From IMG/VR virus record IMGVR_UViG_3300042453_003699, positions 14,034-78,033 of that record: a stretch of DNA of 64,000 nucleotides; one strand, given 5' to 3'. A program made the translations under genes and the position numbers. The stretch is from a virus. The notes beneath the pieces were generated by a model. That model worked only from the letters and a program-made list of their open reading frames with translations. It ran no database searches and was not told the DNA's origin. Within the stretch, counting starts at the first letter, position 1. Every line of letters begins with the position of its first letter. Positions 2,773-50,932 of the stretch are shown in pieces.

Positions 2773-3206
2773 GCTTTTCTCCCTGCGAGTTGGATGATCC
2801 ACACCAACAACTCTGAAAACAAAGTCGCTCCATTGAGGGTAAAATCTAGCATTTCCCAATCAAAACTAGGGTCGCTCGGCGCGATGACTCGCGTGAGCGG
2901 GATTTTTTCCTCAATCTTGCTTTCGTACATCTTAAAAACAGTTTCACCGTTGGGTCGTATTTCAACCACATTCGGCGGAAACTTTTCTCTGGCTTCCCCA
3001 GACACCCCTTTGATGAACAAAGGCTGACCTACCCGATACAAGGAGTGCGACACAAATTTGAAAGTGTGCCCGACTTTGAACGGGTACTCAGAGTCGGAGG
3101 AGGGGTTGATCTTTACGATCAACCCGTTGCTAAGACGGTAAGCCTCCCACGGCAAGGTGTGGGCTAAGTTGTACCTGTCGTATAGACCGTACAGATCAAA
3201 GGTCAT
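2769..3206 (-). CDS. Hypothetical protein
   Basis: 145-aa ORF with 4-nt start/stop overlaps to both neighbours. Confidence 0.65.
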   Translation of the reverse strand: MTFDLYGLYDRYNLAHTLPWEAYRLSNGLIVKINPSSDSEYPFKVGHTFKFVSHSLYRVGQPLFIKGVSGEAREKFPPNVVEIRPNGETVFKMYESKIEEKIPLTRVIAPSDPSFDWEMLDFTLNGATLFSELLVWIIQLAGRKA

Positions 3207-3508
3207 CGGATCAGCGGTCCTTTAGATTCTGGGGGCATATTCGTTGCGGTGATGATCCCCGTGTCTTTCTGAATCCAGAAGTTCGTGTACGATTCCCGCA
3301 TCGAATCCTTCAGGTCAGACTCTACCGCGACCTTTTCTTTTCTTACCTTCATCTTCTTCTCGAAGAGGGGGTGCAAACCAAGACCGAACTGACCCGCTTG
3401 ATTCGGAACAGCCATCAGGGGCTTGGTTAGAATCAGGTAGTCCCCTTCCTCCTGAACTTCTGAGAGAAAGATTCCAACGCCATCAATAACTAAAGTTTTT
3501 ACTTCCAT
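3203..3508 (-). CDS. Phage Sm-like domain protein (putative)
   Basis: GGAGG RBS; beta-rich L.KP motif and C-terminal TGIIT tail resembling phage Sm-like proteins. Confidence 0.5.
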   Translation of the reverse strand: MEVKTLVIDGVGIFLSEVQEEGDYLILTKPLMAVPNQAGQFGLGLHPLFEKKMKVRKEKVAVESDLKDSMRESYTNFWIQKDTGIITATNMPPESKGPLIR

Positions 3509-3549
3509 TTGGTCCTCCGCCGAAAACAGACTATCGCGCTAATCGGGTT

Positions 3550-4389
3550 ATGTCTATATTAGTATCAGGGGGCGCTTTGAAAAGATTCACAGGGGCGGTA
3601 AAGCCGTTTTTCAATCTGGATGGTCTGAATCTCACTATTAGATATGGCGAGGTTGTTTCTCTTGCGGAGTGGCAGACGAGTCACCCGAGCTTTCGTTTTG
3701 CCTTAGAGAATGGGTGGGTAGTCTCCGTGGATCGCAAAACTATCGTCTTCAACGCCGAAACCCCAAAGAAGCCAAGTAACGCTATGCGTTCTAAAAGAAA
3801 GAAATCCGCCGAAATCGTACAGGAGTTGCCAGAAAGCGGTTTAGATCCTGTGATTCTTCAAACAATCTTGGATAAGCAGGAGGGGTTCGTGCGACAAGCC
3901 CAAAAAACCTTTGAACGCCTAACGGCTCAGAAAAAAGAACCAGAGCAACCGACGGTAACGCCTGAGATGTTTGCCTCGATGCTAGAGAACCAACGCAAGA
4001 TGATGGAGATGCTCGAAAAAGAGAAACAGCAACCAGTGCCCCAAGCCCCCGCCTTGGATCAAACCGCAGTGCTGAATGCTCTCAAGCTCCTGACTAATGA
4101 GGTCAAGCGTCTTCAAGAATCAAAACCATCAGAAGCGTCTGTGAATACCGACCAGATTTTAGAGGGCGTAAAACAAGTAATGTCCCAGTTCAGTCCGTCC
4201 TCGGGTTCCTATAATGGAACTAAGAAAGACCCAAGTGGCTTTCAGATACGGGATGATTTTGAAGAGAAGTTCATTCCAAAAGTAGAAGACTTAGAAGTGA
4301 AGAACTCAAATATCGTAGCCCAAGAAAAGGACTCAGGAAGTGTTGAGGAGGCTCTCGCGGCTCTCCGAAAACTCAAGGAGAAGAAATAA
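3550..4389 (+). CDS. Hypothetical protein with coiled coil and C-terminal amphipathic helix; putative actin partner
   Basis: 279-aa ORF (alternative TTG start at 3577 with AGGGGG RBS); TAATG overlap with the actin-like gene; ends SVEEALAALRKLKEKK. Confidence 0.8.
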   Translation: MSILVSGGALKRFTGAVKPFFNLDGLNLTIRYGEVVSLAEWQTSHPSFRFALENGWVVSVDRKTIVFNAETPKKPSNAMRSKRKKSAEIVQELPESGLDPVILQTILDKQEGFVRQAQKTFERLTAQKKEPEQPTVTPEMFASMLENQRKMMEMLEKEKQQPVPQAPALDQTAVLNALKLLTNEVKRLQESKPSEASVNTDQILEGVKQVMSQFSPSSGSYNGTKKDPSGFQIRDDFEEKFIPKVEDLEVKNSNIVAQEKDSGSVEEALAALRKLKEKK

Positions 4390-5435
4390 TGGAACAGTTG
4401 CAAAACCAATCAGTCCCCGCAAGCCCTGTCGCTAAGGATAAGAAGTATCTTGTTCGCGGGTTGGATATTGGGACAGGTACAATCATCGCATCCTATCTTG
4501 ATGAAGCCTCCAATACGGTAAAAAGCAAGCGGGTTCGCGACGCATTCGTATCTCTTGCGGTCGAACAGAAGCAGATGCTCAAGCTATCAAACATTTCGTA
4601 CATTGAGGAAGGTGATCGAGTCATCATTGTCAGCGACGATGCCGCTAACATCGCCAACATCTTCAATCAGCCTCTTCGCCGTCCTCTCAGTCGAGGAACG
4701 ATCTCCCCTTCAGAGATCGAAGCACAGAAGGTTATCAAGCACCTCTTTCGTGAAGTTTTGGGGGAGGCGCAGGTGCCCGGATCGGTATGCGTGTACTCTA
4801 TCCCCGCAAATCCGCTCGACGCAGATCAAGATGTAACTTTTCACGAAATGATTATGGGGCAAATGCTTGAAAGCCTCGGTTGGAAAGCAGTCGCCGCGAA
4901 TGAAGCACAAGCCATCGTTTATTCCGAGTGCGCCGACACCATGTTCAGCGGATTTGCCATGAGCTTCGGAGCAGGGATGGTCAACTGCGCTCTTTCATAC
5001 AAGTCTATCCCTCTTATCACTATGTCGGTTGCCCGCTCTGGGGACTATGTGGATGAGCAATCCGCCAAGGCTACTGGGCTGTCTCCTGCAAAAACTTGCG
5101 CTATCAAAGAGAAGGGCGTGGATCTTCTCGCCCCGAAGGGTCGCGAGCAAGAAGCAATAGCAGTCTATTACAAGGCGCTCATCAAGTATGCTCTTACGAA
5201 CTTTATCGAAAAGATTAAGTCCCAGAATGTCATGGCGCAGATCGACCTGCCTGATTCCATTCCGGTGGTAGTCGGCGGAGGCACATCGCTCCCCATCAAC
5301 TTCCTTGCTGTGGTCAAGGAAGAGGTGAACCGCCTAAAGGGATTTCCGTTTTCTGTGACTGACATTCGCCATGCAAAAGACCCGCTGTATGCAGTTTCTA
5401 GGGGGCTTCTCATCATGGCTCAGAACCAAGACTAA
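4389..5435 (+). CDS. Actin-like ATPase, volactin-like family
   Basis: Phosphate-1 GLDIGTG, connect-1 NEAQA, phosphate-2 SFGAG, adenosine VGGGTS and connect-2 PLYAVSRG; ANIFN..LRRP and PANPLD segments match my recollection of haloarchaeal volactin. Confidence 0.85.
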   Translation: MEQLQNQSVPASPVAKDKKYLVRGLDIGTGTIIASYLDEASNTVKSKRVRDAFVSLAVEQKQMLKLSNISYIEEGDRVIIVSDDAANIANIFNQPLRRPLSRGTISPSEIEAQKVIKHLFREVLGEAQVPGSVCVYSIPANPLDADQDVTFHEMIMGQMLESLGWKAVAANEAQAIVYSECADTMFSGFAMSFGAGMVNCALSYKSIPLITMSVARSGDYVDEQSAKATGLSPAKTCAIKEKGVDLLAPKGREQEAIAVYYKALIKYALTNFIEKIKSQNVMAQIDLPDSIPVVVGGGTSLPINFLAVVKEEVNRLKGFPFSVTDIRHAKDPLYAVSRGLLIMAQNQD

Positions 5436-5445
5436 GGGAGTGTAG

Positions 5446-6801
5446 GTGTACTACTACTTATCCCGAGAGGTAAAACGACGATTCATTGAGGAGATGCGGG
5501 AAATTTTCAAAGAGTATCCCGGTCTCCAAAAGATGAAAGTATCCGATAAGTTTCCCTACCAAGAGAGACCTCAATACGGTCTTGTCGTCAAAAATGTCTC
5601 TGGAAACCCTATTCCGTTGGCAGGGGACAACTTCATCGGGACCGTCATAAGTCATTGCTTCTTAGCGAAACTCAAAGGCAAAAAAGGTCTTTTACTCGAT
5701 TGGGTTCGCGAGAACCCAGAACAAGTTACGGTCTTTGTCGAAGAGGATCTTTCCTCTCAGGTGGACGGATCTAGCCGAGAGTTTCTCCTACAGCATTTTC
5801 CTACAATCGGGTCTCAAAGTATTGAGTTGGCTCAAAGAGGGGATCGCGCCGTCGAAGTTCTTGTCAACGGAAAGCCTTTTGTCGTTCCGATGTCTTTCCA
5901 ATCTAAAAAGATCATTCTTCCGGTCGCACCTGCGATGGGAACCAACCTTGTTGCCAAGTATTATCGTCGGGGTCTGGCAGATGCGGGTCTTTATTATGTA
6001 GAGGTCATGACGACTACGGCAGGTTCGGCTACGGTGATGGTGGACACTCTTCTCGACTACGAGTCCATAATCATTGAATCCGCTACTGGGGCTGAGTCCT
6101 CGTTCAGCCTCCCTCACTTCCCTGTTCACGATAAGACTTTTTCTCTCATCGAAAACGATTCCTTCGTGATGACTGAGGGTGTTCACTACACGATCAATTT
6201 GCAGACGGGGGTTGTTACCTTTTTGAACAACCCAGAAGACCCGACTCAAAAGCTAAGACCTACCTCAAGTTACCGAGTTCAGTACAAGTACCAAGGACCG
6301 TCTTTCGGTCCCTTCACGGTTAAACCGTCATCAGCTTCGTATGATATAATTCCGGGCGTGACGCTTGCCTTCTCCAACTGGCTAGAGGTCGGGGACAAGC
6401 AAGTTGTGATCGTAAGTCCGACTCGTGAGGAGGTCTCTCAGGAGTACGGAGGTCACTTTGAGGTGAGCTTGAGTCTGGACATTTACAGCCGAGATCCCGT
6501 TCAGCGAGAACTCATAGCCGATTTGCTTGCTGTGAAAGTCTTCGGGGAGATCAAGCCAAGATTTGATTCTCAAGGATTAGCTATTGTTAGCGTATCACTC
6601 AATGGGGAATCCGAAGACATTTACGACGAAAACACAGACACCGTTTACTACATGGCAGGGATGGATGTCTCGTTCAACACGGATTGGCGACTGTACGCCC
6701 CGATGATTCCTAAGATTAAAACACTTAGCCTTGATGTTGAGGTCGTTCAATCACTGAATGATTTCAGGGTCAGCTTTAGCCAAGGGGAGTCGATAAAGTA
6801 A
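5446..6801 (+). CDS. Virion structural protein (neck/tail-terminator-like)
   Basis: GGGAG RBS and GTG start; lies upstream of the sheath; contains the EDLSSQ.DG beta module shared with the sheath. Confidence 0.6.
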   Translation: MYYYLSREVKRRFIEEMREIFKEYPGLQKMKVSDKFPYQERPQYGLVVKNVSGNPIPLAGDNFIGTVISHCFLAKLKGKKGLLLDWVRENPEQVTVFVEEDLSSQVDGSSREFLLQHFPTIGSQSIELAQRGDRAVEVLVNGKPFVVPMSFQSKKIILPVAPAMGTNLVAKYYRRGLADAGLYYVEVMTTTAGSATVMVDTLLDYESIIIESATGAESSFSLPHFPVHDKTFSLIENDSFVMTEGVHYTINLQTGVVTFLNNPEDPTQKLRPTSSYRVQYKYQGPSFGPFTVKPSSASYDIIPGVTLAFSNWLEVGDKQVVIVSPTREEVSQEYGGHFEVSLSLDIYSRDPVQRELIADLLAVKVFGEIKPRFDSQGLAIVSVSLNGESEDIYDENTDTVYYMAGMDVSFNTDWRLYAPMIPKIKTLSLDVEVVQSLNDFRVSFSQGESIK

Positions 6802-7193
6802 TGCCATTATACCAATACTACTGCGTTGAGTGTCAGTTGACCTTTGAGGAGTCTTTCAAAAAGCCGGAGGATATTACATCCCCCTGCCCCAAGTGCGCCT
6901 CAGAGTCGGATCGAATGATCTCTGCCCCTAATGTTTTGAAGTCCAATACAAGTCGTGAAAGCGTGGACATCAAGATTGGCGCGGAGTCTGAAAAGCGTTG
7001 GGCTGGCATCCGGCAGAGACAGGCGGAAAAGGAAAAGATCCGAAAAGAGTCGGGAACCACCGCCGTTGAAGTGAAACACGGAAAAGATTCCTCGGGTCAA
7101 ATAACTTACGAATACAAATCAGTGAGTAAGGAACGAGTTGCGGAAAGAAAGAACCTCTACGGAGAGTACCTCTCCTCCAAGAAGAAGCCGTGA
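6801..7193 (+). CDS. FmdB-type zinc-ribbon protein
   Basis: MPLYQYYCVEC...CPKC..R.IS.P signature. Confidence 0.75.
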   Translation: MPLYQYYCVECQLTFEESFKKPEDITSPCPKCASESDRMISAPNVLKSNTSRESVDIKIGAESEKRWAGIRQRQAEKEKIRKESGTTAVEVKHGKDSSGQITYEYKSVSKERVAERKNLYGEYLSSKKKP

Positions 7194-7265: not shown

Positions 7266-10016
7266 ATGAGTATTTTCAGTACATACGCCCCTCCCGGCGT
7301 ATATGTTCAAACTTTGACGGATCTTACCGCCGCGAATATCGTTGCGGGGCTCCGTATGCCTGTGTTCATCGGAGTTGGGCGCGAAAGCCTGACCCTGAGC
7401 AATTTCGAGATCATTCGCGGGTCATCGGCTACTTCCGACATCCGTATGCTTGGCGAAGATGTCAGTTCCCAGTTCACTGGGACCAACCGCCAGTTCACGG
7501 TCGCCAACTACCCCGTCGTTGACGGAAGCGGTCGCGCAGTTACTACCAATGACCCAAATGTTGTTTCTGTCACTATCGACGATCAGCCTACTGGCGTGAT
7601 CGCTGTGGACGGAGCAAGCGGTCTTGTGACCCTTGGAGCAATTCCTCCGATGGGTTCGGTGGTCAAGGTGGGCTATTTCTTTAGCCGTAAAGACCTAAAA
7701 GTCACTGACGAAGACCTCAGCTATCAAGCTGACGGCTCAAATCTTGAGTTCAAGGTCAATAAGTCCCCGATTGTAAACGGAAACAACGGTGGTATTATTA
7801 CTACCGAAGTATCTCGTGTGGTCGTTACAGTTGACGGAAGCGCCGTTGAAGTGGCTTCCCTTGATGGAATTCACGGCGTAATCACTCTCGCTTCGGCTCC
7901 TGCCGACGGCGCTGAGGTTCTGGCAACCTACTACACCAACACATTCCAAGACACTTACGATTACCTGCCACAAGACATCAACATCTTGTCGGTCAAGGCA
8001 ATCGGCAACAGCCCCGGTCGCCAAGACTACTTCCTCGGACAAGACTATGTTGTTCAGAACGGGAAGATCATTTGGGGATCTGCTTTCGACATCCGAAACG
8101 GGTCTGCGGCAACCGGAAACGCCTTCGGGTCTGAGCAGATTTCTGCAACCCTTGTGGACAATCGCTTCTTCATGAGGGAAGCAGCCGGAGCTTCCAACGG
8201 TACAAACAAGAAGTTCGTGCTTGAAGAAATCCCTGTCGCCGGAGACGGGCGCGATGTTCCAACCGACGACCTTTCTAAGATTCAGGTTTATGTGGGAACA
8301 AGTGTGGCTTCCGCTTTTGCGGCAGGTCCGGTTGATGTGATGTCCCTTAATGGCGTTTCAGGCGAGGTTGTTCTCAAGAACGCTCCGTCTGCGGGTCATA
8401 AAGTGTATGCCACTTACTACTACAACATCCTTACCGATGACATTTTCACTGTCACGAATCGCGTGGCTTCTACCTTTTCGGTAACAGGGGAGTACGATGT
8501 TATCAGCGCAAATGGGGGTGCTTGTTTTGCGGGAGAGTTCTCTGAAGCTGACTCAACTGTAGCCGCACCTGCTTTCGGAACGGAAGGAATTAAGTTTCCT
8601 GCCGATACTGCGGATGTGGTGACGGTGCCGGGCTATTCGGTGGAAGAAGATGTCACCCTTACCTTCACAAGCGCCACTCAGTACACCGTCAGTAGCTCAC
8701 TCGGAGCAGACGGTTCTTCTGGAACTGGTCATCTGAATCAAACCTATGTCGATGCGAAGACTGGTCTTCGTTTCACTATTCTTGCTCCCTCCACCTTCAA
8801 CTATGCGGCTGGGGATGAGCTAGTTTGCTATGTGACAGGTCAGCAAGAGACAGGGATTCTTCCTAAAAAGATCATTCCTGGTCTCAATCTTGTCGTCTCG
8901 AATACAACGGGTGTCACCGTTGGTTCCACAGGTCTTGTTGAATGCTTCAATAAGACTGGAGGGGAGCCTTCCATTGGTGACTCGTACTTCGTGACTCTCG
9001 ACTATGAAAAGACGGACTACAAGCCCGCTGTTTACACGAATTTCCGTGATGTGGTGACGGCTTTCGGTCCTCTCAATGTCGAAAACAGGCTGACTCTTGC
9101 GGCTTATCTTGCGTTCCTCCAAGGCGCTCCCGCTATTGCAATCTCTCAGGTGAAGAAAGCCTCCGGCGGACTTCAAGCTAGTGATGCGGCGTTCCTTGAG
9201 GCTATGACGGCTCTTGAGAATCCGCTCGAAGGTGATGTTCGTCCGAATATCCTTGTTCCTCTCACTACTTCACGCACTGTTCTTCAGGCGGCTAAGAAGC
9301 ACTGTGAGAAGGTTTCTAGCTCCCGCTATGCGATGGAACGAACCATGATGTTCGGTTTTGCTATCGGGACGCTTCCAGAGACCGCACAGGAATTCGCTAA
9401 GGCGCTCGCTTCCGAGCGTTGTTTGGGTGTCTACCCCGACGGCGCAGTGGTTGCGATCGAAGACGCTTTTGGGCGTGAGATCGAGAATACCGTGGATGGC
9501 AGTTTCTTGGCGGCGGCTCTTGCAGGTCTTGCTTGCAACCCTGTTTTTGATGTCGCTACCCCTCTGACTCGTAAGAGTTTGACTGGGTTCCGCCGATTGT
9601 TCCGCCGTCTTGACGCGGTGCAGTCTAACCAAACAGCGGTTTCGGGTCTTACCGTTATGACGGAGAACCAAGCGTCGATTCAGATTCGTCAGGCAGTTAC
9701 GACTGATCCTAGCAACATTCTGACTCGGGAGCCTTCGATTGTGTTCATCAAGGATGAAATCCAACAGCTCACCCGTACAACTCTTGAACCGTTCATTGCA
9801 GAGAAGTTCCTTCCCGGTCGCCTCACCGACATCGAAATTGCTCTCGCAAATATGTTCAAGAACCAGATTCAGGCGGAAAAAGTCGTTGCTTTCACGGGTA
9901 TCAAAGCTACCCCAAGGGCAACTGACCCTACCGTTGCGGATGTCGTGGCTTTCTACAGCCCTGTATTCCCATTGAACTGGATTCAGGTCACTTATACGCT
10001 CCGTACTACGCTCTAA
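7266..10016 (+). CDS. Contractile tail sheath protein with inserted beta-sandwich repeats
   Basis: N-terminal Y.PPGVY, PVFIG; C-terminal sheath core ending FYSPVFPLNWIQVTY; strong GGAGG RBS. Confidence 0.9.
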   Translation: MSIFSTYAPPGVYVQTLTDLTAANIVAGLRMPVFIGVGRESLTLSNFEIIRGSSATSDIRMLGEDVSSQFTGTNRQFTVANYPVVDGSGRAVTTNDPNVVSVTIDDQPTGVIAVDGASGLVTLGAIPPMGSVVKVGYFFSRKDLKVTDEDLSYQADGSNLEFKVNKSPIVNGNNGGIITTEVSRVVVTVDGSAVEVASLDGIHGVITLASAPADGAEVLATYYTNTFQDTYDYLPQDINILSVKAIGNSPGRQDYFLGQDYVVQNGKIIWGSAFDIRNGSAATGNAFGSEQISATLVDNRFFMREAAGASNGTNKKFVLEEIPVAGDGRDVPTDDLSKIQVYVGTSVASAFAAGPVDVMSLNGVSGEVVLKNAPSAGHKVYATYYYNILTDDIFTVTNRVASTFSVTGEYDVISANGGACFAGEFSEADSTVAAPAFGTEGIKFPADTADVVTVPGYSVEEDVTLTFTSATQYTVSSSLGADGSSGTGHLNQTYVDAKTGLRFTILAPSTFNYAAGDELVCYVTGQQETGILPKKIIPGLNLVVSNTTGVTVGSTGLVECFNKTGGEPSIGDSYFVTLDYEKTDYKPAVYTNFRDVVTAFGPLNVENRLTLAAYLAFLQGAPAIAISQVKKASGGLQASDAAFLEAMTALENPLEGDVRPNILVPLTTSRTVLQAAKKHCEKVSSSRYAMERTMMFGFAIGTLPETAQEFAKALASERCLGVYPDGAVVAIEDAFGREIENTVDGSFLAAALAGLACNPVFDVATPLTRKSLTGFRRLFRRLDAVQSNQTAVSGLTVMTENQASIQIRQAVTTDPSNILTREPSIVFIKDEIQQLTRTTLEPFIAEKFLPGRLTDIEIALANMFKNQIQAEKVVAFTGIKATPRATDPTVADVVAFYSPVFPLNWIQVTYTLRTTL

Positions 10017-10047
10017 TAGTGCGTAGTTTAGAGCTTTTTGTTCGAGG

Positions 10048-10082
10048 AGGGCGGGGTTCGGAAGAGCCCCGCCTTTTCTTTT
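10048..10082 (+). terminator. Rho-independent terminator after the sheath gene
   Basis: AGGGCGGGGTTC-GGAA-GAGCCCCGCCTT followed by a T tract. Confidence 0.85.
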
Positions 10083-10096
10083 AATTTTATGGGGTT

Positions 10097-28951: not shown

Positions 28952-28983
28952 AACCTAGTTGAGAGAATCTCCTATAATGGGGG

Positions 28984-31421: not shown

Positions 31422-31437
31422 GCCTCTATAATGGGGT

Positions 31438-50900: not shown

Positions 50901-50932
50901 TCTACTATTTTAGTTATTAGGGGGTCTAGTAT

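What the first reader, a model, noticed from the sequence alone, without database searches (positions are those of the whole stretch)
3550..5435. Volactin-like actin with a coupled partner heading the virion operon: candidate phage actin cytoskeleton
Seen: 4389..5435 has all five actin-fold motifs, and segments such as ANIFN..LRRP, YSIPANPLD, FSG..SFGAGM.N and PLYAVSRG match my recollection of haloarchaeal volactin better than MreB, FtsA or ParM. It overlaps (TAATG) a gene with a small N-terminal domain, a coiled coil and a terminal amphipathic helix SVEEALAALRKLKEKK. Established: ParR engages ParM through a C-terminal amphipathic helix, and phiKZ-like phages use the tubulin PhuZ to position DNA and move capsids. 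Inference: this is an actin-based counterpart, co-expressed with neck and sheath genes, that positions virion assembly or DNA.
Basis: partly seen in the sequence, partly recalled or inferred. Interest (0 to 1): 0.88.

Follow-up and report, generated by a model that had tools for sequence, protein, structure and literature searches.

The report
Jumbo-phage volactin actin with adaptor
An uncultured lake phage of about 350 kb encodes a true actin of the archaeal "volactin" family plus a conserved partner whose tail motif also occurs in the membrane protein beside haloarchaeal volactin, so these tubulin-less giant phages probably build their own actin filaments; nobody has tested this, and no paper I could search describes it.

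Summary
ORF 4389..5435 matches Pfam Volactin over its full length (221 bits, E 2.9e-65). It is 37% identical to haloarchaeal homologues. It folds confidently as an actin whose nearest solved structures are the filament formers BeeR, crenactin, MreB and MamK.

The upstream ORF 3550..4389 overlaps it by one base. It belongs to a partner family with no Pfam match. A homologue lies upstream on the same strand in 75 of 76 related phage loci with enough upstream sequence.

Its architecture is conserved: a small beta domain, a coiled coil, a "FIP" motif and a basic amphipathic C-terminal helix. The helix motif recurs, significantly, in the cytoplasmic tail of the CdpA-like membrane protein encoded directly upstream of haloarchaeal volactin genes. 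That makes it the likely actin-binding element.

More than 540 IMG/VR contigs, many of 350-530 kb, carry the actin. Five large relatives have no detectable tubulin, and the four of them also searched have no chimallin.

The pair heads a unit with a conserved unknown protein (a tail-terminator lead), a Zn-ribbon protein and the tail sheath.

Polymerisation, partner binding and the cargo are inferred, not shown. This scan has found the same system before on other DNA (95 notes, at least 84 genomes). I found no publication on it.

The parts
3515..3524 (+). One-mismatch copy (CTCCGCCGAA) of the phage's dispersed 10-mer TTCCGCCGAA, in the 41-nt gap before the partner gene. Candidate promoter or operator element of the unit.
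   Evidence: The 10-mer occurs 35 times with up to 1 mismatch against 5.4 expected; 0 of 100 shuffles reach that count. Sequence read.
3550..4389 (+). Partner/adaptor, 279 aa: N-terminal beta domain, basic Pro-rich linker, coiled coil, FIP-type motif (EKFIPKV) and a C-terminal basic amphipathic helix.
   Evidence: ORF. AF2 model. Family alignment A2. Same-strand upstream homologue in 75 of 76 loci. C-terminal motif statistics. No Pfam or PHROG family.
4389..5435 (+). Volactin-family actin, 348 aa.
   Evidence: Pfam PF25216, 221 bits. AF2 pLDDT 88.6, pTM 0.87. Fold matches BeeR Z 27.4, crenactin 26.0, MreB 25.3. MamK is the best PDB profile hit, E 2e-8. 37% identity to haloarchaeal homologues. 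Tree.
5446..6801 (+). Conserved 451-aa protein of unknown family that follows the actin in most relatives. It carries a domain of about 80 aa also repeated in the sheath N-terminus. Lead: tail-terminator-like.
   Evidence: Strong homologue (E<=1e-120) downstream in about 73 of 86 loci. Shared domain. DUF2460 hit in 10 of 18 members. Atlas feature hit to SP10_terminator, 0.90, a lead only. No PDB or PHROG hit.
6801..7193 (+). Zn-ribbon protein (FmdB-like, CxxC...CPxC), 130 aa.
   Evidence: PF09723, E 3.5e-8. phrog_1076. Homologue in 70 loci. Four invariant Cys.
7266..10016 (+). Tail sheath, 916 aa.
   Evidence: phrog_2839 tail sheath, E 4.1e-27.
10046..10077 (+). Strong intrinsic-terminator-like hairpin ending the unit.
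   Evidence: 14-bp stem with 8 GC pairs and a T-run. It is the top-listed site, and no comparably long + strand stem lies between 3550 and 10016.

Best explanation
Gene 4389..5435 encodes a filament-forming actin of the volactin family, made by a freshwater jumbo myovirus of about 350 kb. Gene 3550..4389 encodes its cognate adaptor. The proposed mechanism is as follows. The actin polymerises with nucleotide into dynamic filaments, as H. volcanii volactin does. The adaptor dimerises through its coiled coil. Its C-terminal module (a FIP motif plus an amphipathic basic helix) binds the actin, and its N-terminal beta domain ties the filament to a phage-specific target. The pair appears to be transcribed with a tail-terminator-like protein, a Zn-ribbon protein and the sheath. 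It is a core syntenic module of a large clade of tubulin-less jumbo phages. The most likely job is therefore spatial organisation of the late infected cell: moving or positioning virion-assembly intermediates or phage DNA. Shown here: family membership, fold, conservation and linkage of the partner, and the shared motif with haloarchaeal CdpA-like proteins. Inferred: polymerisation, helix-actin binding, timing and cargo.
For: Family and fold. The jumbo-phage clade is monophyletic (SH-aLRT 95) inside a volactin group that lies far from MreB, FtsA and DnaK. Volactin forms dynamic filaments in vivo that are bound to the membrane by their tips (PMC10869688). Partner linkage: 75 of 76 loci have a same-strand upstream homologue, 43 adjacent and 32 at 331-2519 nt upstream. 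The partner diverges fast overall but keeps its C-terminal motif. The same architecture stands directly upstream of the actin on MAG contigs L087-L089. A position-specific scoring matrix (PSSM) built from 60 unique phage partner C-terminal motifs scores 17.8, 13.0 and 19.6 bits in the tails of the 4-TM proteins directly upstream of the haloarchaeal homologues. Composition-preserving shuffles reach these scores 1, 4 and 1 times in 5000. HVO_2016, next to volactin, is a CdpA-like 4-TM protein, and a CdpA pull-down recovered volactin (PMC12126565). HVO_2016 abundance tracks volactin. Spread: more than 540 viral contigs and 1480 representative clusters. No tubulin in five large relatives and no chimallin in the four of them searched for it. 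Operon: overlapping or close-set genes and a single strong terminator after the sheath. Inteins sit in the phosphate-2 motif of at least 19 of the 150 best representatives, which argues that the ATP site matters.
Against: There is no experiment on any phage member and no cultured phage carries it; INPHARED has only two uncultured records. No complex model could be made with the tools at hand. The fold gradient is shallow: the Hsp70 nucleotide-binding domain scores Z 24.4 against 27.4 for BeeR. The partner's N-terminal domain has no significant fold match, so the cargo is unknown. Synteny with tail genes may only reflect conserved core-gene order. No RNA data are available.
Confidence: 0.6

Rival explanations
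1. A ParMRC-like partition or positioning system for the phage genome. The partner would bind phage DNA and the actin would push or position genomes, for replication as AlpC/AlpA does, or for maintenance in a carrier or plasmid-like state.
For: A Planctomycetota branch of the same family fuses a ParB-type HTH domain to the actin's N-terminus (P0221 27.8 bits, above the cut-off; P0207, P0218 and P0220 weaker). AlpC/AlpA of prophage CGP3 is a precedent (PMC4446434). A basic Pro-rich linker follows the partner's N-domain.
Against: No iterated parC-like repeats lie near the operon. The partner has no recognisable DNA-binding fold or Pfam domain. The pair sits in the tail-gene unit rather than in a replication module.
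Confidence: 0.2
2. Host take-over. The phage actin and adaptor would act on the host envelope or divisome to change cell shape or size or to block division, rather than carrying phage cargo.
For: Volactin itself acts in cell-shape transitions (PMC10869688). Its haloarchaeal neighbour belongs to the CdpA division-anchor family (PMC12126565). Earlier notes of this scan, unchecked by me, report membrane-anchored partners in other phage clades.
Against: The partner in this clade has no predicted transmembrane segment. Its C-terminal helix is only weakly hydrophobic (mean H -0.19). Co-transcription with the sheath suggests late expression, not early.
Confidence: 0.12
3. A non-polymerising ASKHA ATPase that acts as an assembly chaperone for tail or sheath proteins, like Hsp70h of closteroviruses, with the partner as co-chaperone.
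For: Conserved synteny with the 451-aa protein, the Zn-ribbon protein and the sheath. The Hsp70 nucleotide-binding domain is a near fold neighbour (Z 24.4). The viral structure library returns mostly Hsp70-like proteins, at TM about 0.5.
Against: There is no substrate-binding domain; the protein is 348 aa and is all actin fold. The best matches by sequence profile and by fold are filament formers. The family's type member polymerises. The partner motif is shared with a haloarchaeal membrane protein that has nothing to do with tails.
Confidence: 0.08

Closest known systems
Volactin (VolA, HVO_2015) of Haloferax volcanii with its neighbour HVO_2016 (CdpA-like)
   Same: Same Pfam family (PF25216). 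37% identity to haloarchaeal homologues. An adaptor-like gene stands directly upstream, and its tail carries the same acidic-stretch + hDDAxxxL+xL+ helix motif. A small Zn-finger or Zn-ribbon gene lies nearby.
   Different: It is encoded by a bacteriophage. The partner has a soluble beta domain and coiled coil instead of four TM helices. It is embedded in tail genes. The phage clade is a separate branch of the tree.
AlpC/AlpA of Corynebacterium prophage CGP3
   Same: A phage-encoded actin-like protein with an adjacent adaptor. The actin is needed for viral DNA transport and replication.
   Different: AlpC belongs to a different actin family. AlpA binds DNA at alpS sites. No DNA-binding domain or repeat sites were found here.
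ParM/ParR/parC (plasmid R1)
   Same: An actin-like ATPase plus a small adaptor that (from established knowledge) inserts a C-terminal helix into the actin. The genes are coupled.
   Different: No ParM Pfam hit. ParM is a lower fold match (Z 19-22). No RHH fold and no centromere repeats. The gene order and context differ.
PhuZ tubulin spindle of Chimalliviridae
   Same: A jumbo-phage-encoded cytoskeletal polymer. This is the proposed functional analogue for organising the infected cell.
   Different: PhuZ has a tubulin fold, not an actin fold. The relatives tested here have no detectable tubulin or chimallin.
MamK, BeeR and MreB
   Same: The nearest solved structures or profiles. All are filament-forming bacterial actins.
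   Different: Only 15-19% identity. They come from different families and work with different partners (MamJ, RodZ).

Membership tests
Volactin family (Pfam PF25216) | Full-length match to the family HMM above the gathering score | tested here: met
   221.3 bits against a cut-off of 35, profile 3-321 of 321, E 2.9e-65. In 14 control genomes the model matched four and cleared the cut-off in only one; the tool does not name which.
Volactin family (Pfam PF25216) | Closer to haloarchaeal volactin homologues than to MreB, FtsA or Hsp70 | tested here: met
   37% identity, E 4e-69, to Halogeometricum, Natrinema and Haloarcula. In the tree it groups with them, and branches of 3-8 substitutions per site lead to MreB, FtsA and DnaK. 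No MreB_Mbl hit at E<=0.1. The H. volcanii VolA sequence itself could not be fetched.
Volactin family (Pfam PF25216) | Actin fold with conserved phosphate-1, phosphate-2 and adenosine motifs | tested here: met
   AF2 pLDDT 88.6. Fold matches. Invariant D26/G28/T29, S192/G194/G196 and G297/G298. Phosphate-2 reads SFGAGM here and in the haloarchaeal plasmid copies, whereas VolA is printed as DFGAG.
Volactin family (Pfam PF25216) | Forms dynamic filaments in vivo | not testable with these tools
   Needs expression and imaging or sedimentation. Only the H. volcanii member has been tested (PMC10869688).
ParMRC-type segregation system | Actin of the ParM/StbA family | tested here: not met
   No ParM Pfam hit at E<=0.1. 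ParM structures score Z 16.6-21.9, below BeeR, crenactin and MreB.
ParMRC-type segregation system | Adaptor is a DNA-binding protein (RHH or HTH) | tested here: inconclusive
   No Pfam domain in 33 members. No significant fold match for the N-domain; the best is the YqbF N-domain, Z 4.4.
ParMRC-type segregation system | Iterated centromere repeats next to the operon | tested here: not met
   No iterated repeats in 2800-4500. The upstream gap is 41 nt.
Hsp70-type chaperone | Nucleotide-binding domain joined to a substrate-binding domain | tested here: not met
   The protein is 348 aa and the actin fold spans residues 14-348. No Hsp70 Pfam hit.
PhuZ/tubulin phage cytoskeleton | Tubulin/FtsZ GTPase fold | tested here: not met
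   The protein has an actin fold. PF00091 is absent from five related large phage records.

The most novel reading that the evidence does not exclude
The FIP motif plus the amphipathic basic helix would be a universal volactin-binding module, attached to interchangeable anchors: a 4-TM CdpA-like domain in haloarchaea and a soluble beta domain in jumbo phages, with DNA-binding ParB-HTH fused directly to the actin in Planctomycetota. On this reading a very large, globally spread set of tubulin-less jumbo phages runs an actin-based cytoskeleton that organises virion assembly. That would be an actin counterpart of the PhuZ spindle, and it would also name the missing volactin membrane anchor in archaea.
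Probability: 0.35. Interest if true: 0.9.

Novelty: new variant of a known kind. Interest (0 to 1): 0.8.

Why it matters
Phage-built cytoskeletons are so far known from the PhuZ tubulin of nucleus-forming phages and from a few ParM- or Alp-type actins. The system here is a different actin family with its own adaptor. It is a core gene pair of hundreds of uncultured jumbo phages that show no detectable tubulin or chimallin. The recent jumbo-phage reviews I could search do not mention it.

The shared adaptor motif gives one testable hypothesis for two fields. It proposes how giant phages organise late infection. It also proposes that HVO_2016 is the factor that ties volactin filament tips to the haloarchaeal membrane, which can be tested in a tractable organism.

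Tried and rejected
- The ESM Atlas did not hold the window's 451-aa protein. A homologue gave only a lead.
- The single genome-contig scan used a pattern specific to the phage clade. It returned four MAG loci and no Haloferax. Haloarchaeal sequences came from the plasmid collection instead. H. volcanii VolA itself was not obtained.
- I looked for partner-actin fusions among long family members. None exist; the N-terminal extensions are a ParB-HTH domain or other domains.
- I looked for the ParB-HTH fusions in viral contigs and found none.
- The gene inserted between partner and actin in one subclade (WHDPT...DKHEEF) does not carry the helix motif.
- Partner fold searches gave nothing significant.
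- There are no parC-like repeats.
- No sigma-70 promoter-like site lies before 3550.
- Sequencing runs: no RNA holder is listed.
- The phiKZ chimallin search used one sequence only and has limited reach.
- PDB sequence search with the single protein found nothing.

Full report
**What is there**

The window is part of a 78-kb IMG/VR virus record that CheckV rates 47% complete. Its proteins recur on contigs of 345-356 kb, so the genome is probably about 350 kb. Near-identical DNA occurs in lake and freshwater metagenomes of several studies.

ORFs 3550..4389 (279 aa) and 4389..5435 (348 aa) overlap by one base. On the same strand follow a 451-aa ORF after a 10-nt gap, a 130-aa Zn-ribbon ORF that overlaps it, and a 916-aa tail sheath (phrog_2839, E 4e-27). 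Baseplate genes lie further on.

The only strong terminator-like hairpin in the scanned stretch lies at 10046-10077, just after the sheath. The 41-nt gap before the partner holds a one-mismatch copy of the phage's over-represented 10-mer TTCCGCCGAA (35 copies against 5.4 expected). I infer one transcription unit from the partner to the sheath.

**The actin**

- Pfam gives a single hit: Volactin PF25216, 221 bits, full length.
- tblastn against plasmids and chromids finds only haloarchaea (Halogeometricum, Natrinema, Haloarcula), at 37% identity over 95% of the protein.
- AlphaFold2 with a 20-sequence alignment gives pLDDT 88.6 and pTM 0.87.
- Foldseek ranks BeeR, MamK, MreB and actin first.
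- The Foldseek-independent search gives BeeR Z 27.4, crenactin 26.0, MreB 25.3, the BiP nucleotide-binding domain 24.4, actin 23.2, FtsA 22.8, ParMs 17-22 and sugar kinases 16-17.
- A profile search of PDB sequences finds MamK first (E 2e-8). The single sequence finds nothing.
- In a tree with E. coli MreB, FtsA and the DnaK nucleotide-binding domain as outgroups, all volactin-family rows form a tight group on very long branches from the outgroups. The 32 jumbo-phage rows are one clade (SH-aLRT 95). Their nearest neighbours are two MAG sequences and the haloarchaeal proteins.

So the protein groups with polymerising actins, specifically with volactin. Volactin forms dynamic filaments whose tips touch the membrane (PMC10869688). 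The fold ranking alone cannot exclude an Hsp70-like ATPase, but there is no substrate-binding domain.

**How widespread**

- 203 near-length homologues, and every one of the 120 listed carries PF25216, several on 350-480-kb contigs.
- 1480 representative clusters at 50% identity match at E<=1e-3, and 519 at 1e-30.
- INPHARED has only two uncultured huge phages. The viral structure library has no close model.
- Five large relatives were searched: four IMG/VR records of 356-529 kb (three of them rated complete) and the 485-kb INPHARED record. None has a tubulin match. The four of them searched with phiKZ chimallin, plus this fragment, gave no match either.

**The partner**

A direct search finds only ten close homologues, and the partner diverges much faster than the actin. 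Where the actin is 84% identical, the partner is 35% identical on the same contig.

An HMM built from the upstream genes finds a same-strand upstream homologue in 75 of 76 loci that have at least 1.5 kb of upstream sequence. In 43 it is adjacent (-62 to +31 nt). In 32 it lies 331-2519 nt upstream, with subclade-specific genes in between. The only exception is the most divergent actin, LR756511.

The architecture is constant:
- a beta domain of about 55 aa;
- a basic Pro-rich stretch;
- a coiled coil;
- a PxFIPSxI motif;
- an acidic Ser-rich stretch;
- a terminal helix of the form h-[DE]-[DE]-A-A-x-A-L-[KR]-x-L-[RK]-K-K.

The Leu was the anchor residue in all 64 aligned sequences, hydrophobic positions fall on one face of the helix, and the tail carries a net charge of about +4. 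Its small, mostly Ala/Leu face and low hydrophobicity look more like a groove-binding peptide than a membrane-targeting helix; that reading is my inference.

No Pfam, PHROG or significant fold match exists for the N-domain. MAG contigs labelled Thermoplasmatales, Neomarinimicrobiota and Heimdallarchaeota carry the actin with an adjacent partner of the same architecture.

**The link to haloarchaea**

In all three haloarchaeal genera a polytopic membrane protein of about 300 aa lies directly upstream of the actin on the same strand. The phage partner HMM does not detect it.

Its cytoplasmic tail nevertheless carries one or two copies of the phage C-terminal motif after an acidic linker. A PSSM from 60 unique phage motifs scores these at 17.8, 13.0 and 19.6 bits. 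Among about 1940 other ORFs of the phage loci, only five reach 17.8 bits, and all five lie upstream of the actin in loci left out of the partner set, so I take them to be true partners. Shuffling the tails reaches the observed scores 1, 4 and 1 times in 5000. The three proteins are homologous to each other, so this counts as one independent event.

Published work fits. HVO_2016, next to volactin, is a CdpA-like protein with four TM segments, and a CdpA-HA pull-down recovered volactin at log2FC 2.5, p = 0.06 (PMC12126565). HVO_2016 abundance follows volactin in the shape proteomics, and HVO_2014 on the other side is a small zinc-finger protein.

I therefore read the helix, probably together with the FIP motif, as the actin-binding element. 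The N-terminal part would be the exchangeable anchor.

**Other family architectures**

Eight representative clusters share an N-terminal extension of the actin. In four of them it matches a ParB-type HTH domain, one above the Pfam cut-off. Named members of two of the clusters come from Planctomycetota MAGs. This keeps a DNA-linked role open for the family. At least 19 of the 150 best representatives are split at the phosphate-2 motif by intein-sized inserts, and one of these was confirmed as intein plus LAGLIDADG. A few are tandem double actins.

**Context**

The 451-aa protein follows the actin in about 73 of 86 loci, and the Zn-ribbon protein in 70. The 451-aa protein shares a domain of about 80 aa with the sheath N-terminus. 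The Atlas offers a tail-terminator lead, but Pfam, PHROG and PDB give no support for it.

**Verdict**

The actin-plus-adaptor reading is well supported at the level of sequence and fold. The mechanism (filaments captured by a dimeric adaptor) is an inference with one independent line of support, the motif shared with CdpA-like proteins. The cargo is unknown. Rival readings are DNA partition, host-shape take-over and an assembly chaperone.

I found no paper describing volactin-family actins in phages. The library lacks most subscription journals. Earlier follow-ups of this scan reached the same reading on other genomes. Some of them report membrane-anchored partners in other phage clades, which I did not check.

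Noticed in passing
family-wide (P0180, P0181, P0186-P0188, P0191, P0194 and others); not in the window: At least 19 of the 150 best representative volactin-family proteins are interrupted at the phosphate-2 (GAGM) motif by inserts of 130-440 aa. P0180 carries Intein_splicing plus LAGLIDADG domains. Inteins in an actin ATP site are unusual.
   Followed up: partly
P0207, P0212, P0213, P0216, P0218, P0220, P0221, P0228: Eight representative clusters share an N-terminal extension of the actin; in four it matches a ParB-type HTH domain. A long acidic C-terminal tail follows the actin domain in the six sequences I read. Named members of two of the clusters are from Planctomycetota MAGs, which suggests a cellular branch that binds DNA directly.
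   Followed up: partly
P0177, P0185, P0193: Tandem double-actin proteins: two volactin domains in one chain.
   Followed up: no
window 10085-10095, 28973-28983, 31427-31437, 50915-50925 and others: The motif TAWWATGGGGK is enriched (13 copies against 4.1 expected; 0 of 100 shuffles reach 13). It often abuts a start codon, which fits leaderless genes with a -10 box right at the ATG. One copy directly follows the terminator after the sheath.
   Followed up: partly
window-wide, e.g. 28942, 37311, 37331, 51780, 51799; 3515 before the partner gene: The 10-mer TTCCGCCGAA occurs 35 times with up to 1 mismatch against 5.4 expected. It is a candidate phage promoter or operator element.
   Followed up: partly
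window 5446-6801 and 7266-10016: The conserved 451-aa protein and the sheath N-terminus share a repeated domain of about 80 aa (DUF2460-like). Many relatives have a third protein of about 450 aa with this domain upstream of the partner.
   Followed up: partly
L090 6261-6563, L091 6114-6587, L092 6096-6266 (minus strand); window 6801-7193: Haloarchaeal volactin homologues have a small Cys-pair (CxxC) protein just downstream, with a shared ESW..AF.RF motif. [quoted passage not shown] The phage module has a CPxC Zn-ribbon protein two genes downstream. Homology between them is not shown.
   Followed up: no
L009, L013, L019, L029, L043, L049, L061 and others, between partner and actin: One phage subclade has one or two extra genes inserted between partner and actin: a family with WHDPTxYDP...DKHEEFVYLLQQR, and another starting MHPRQA. 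Their function is unknown.
   Followed up: partly
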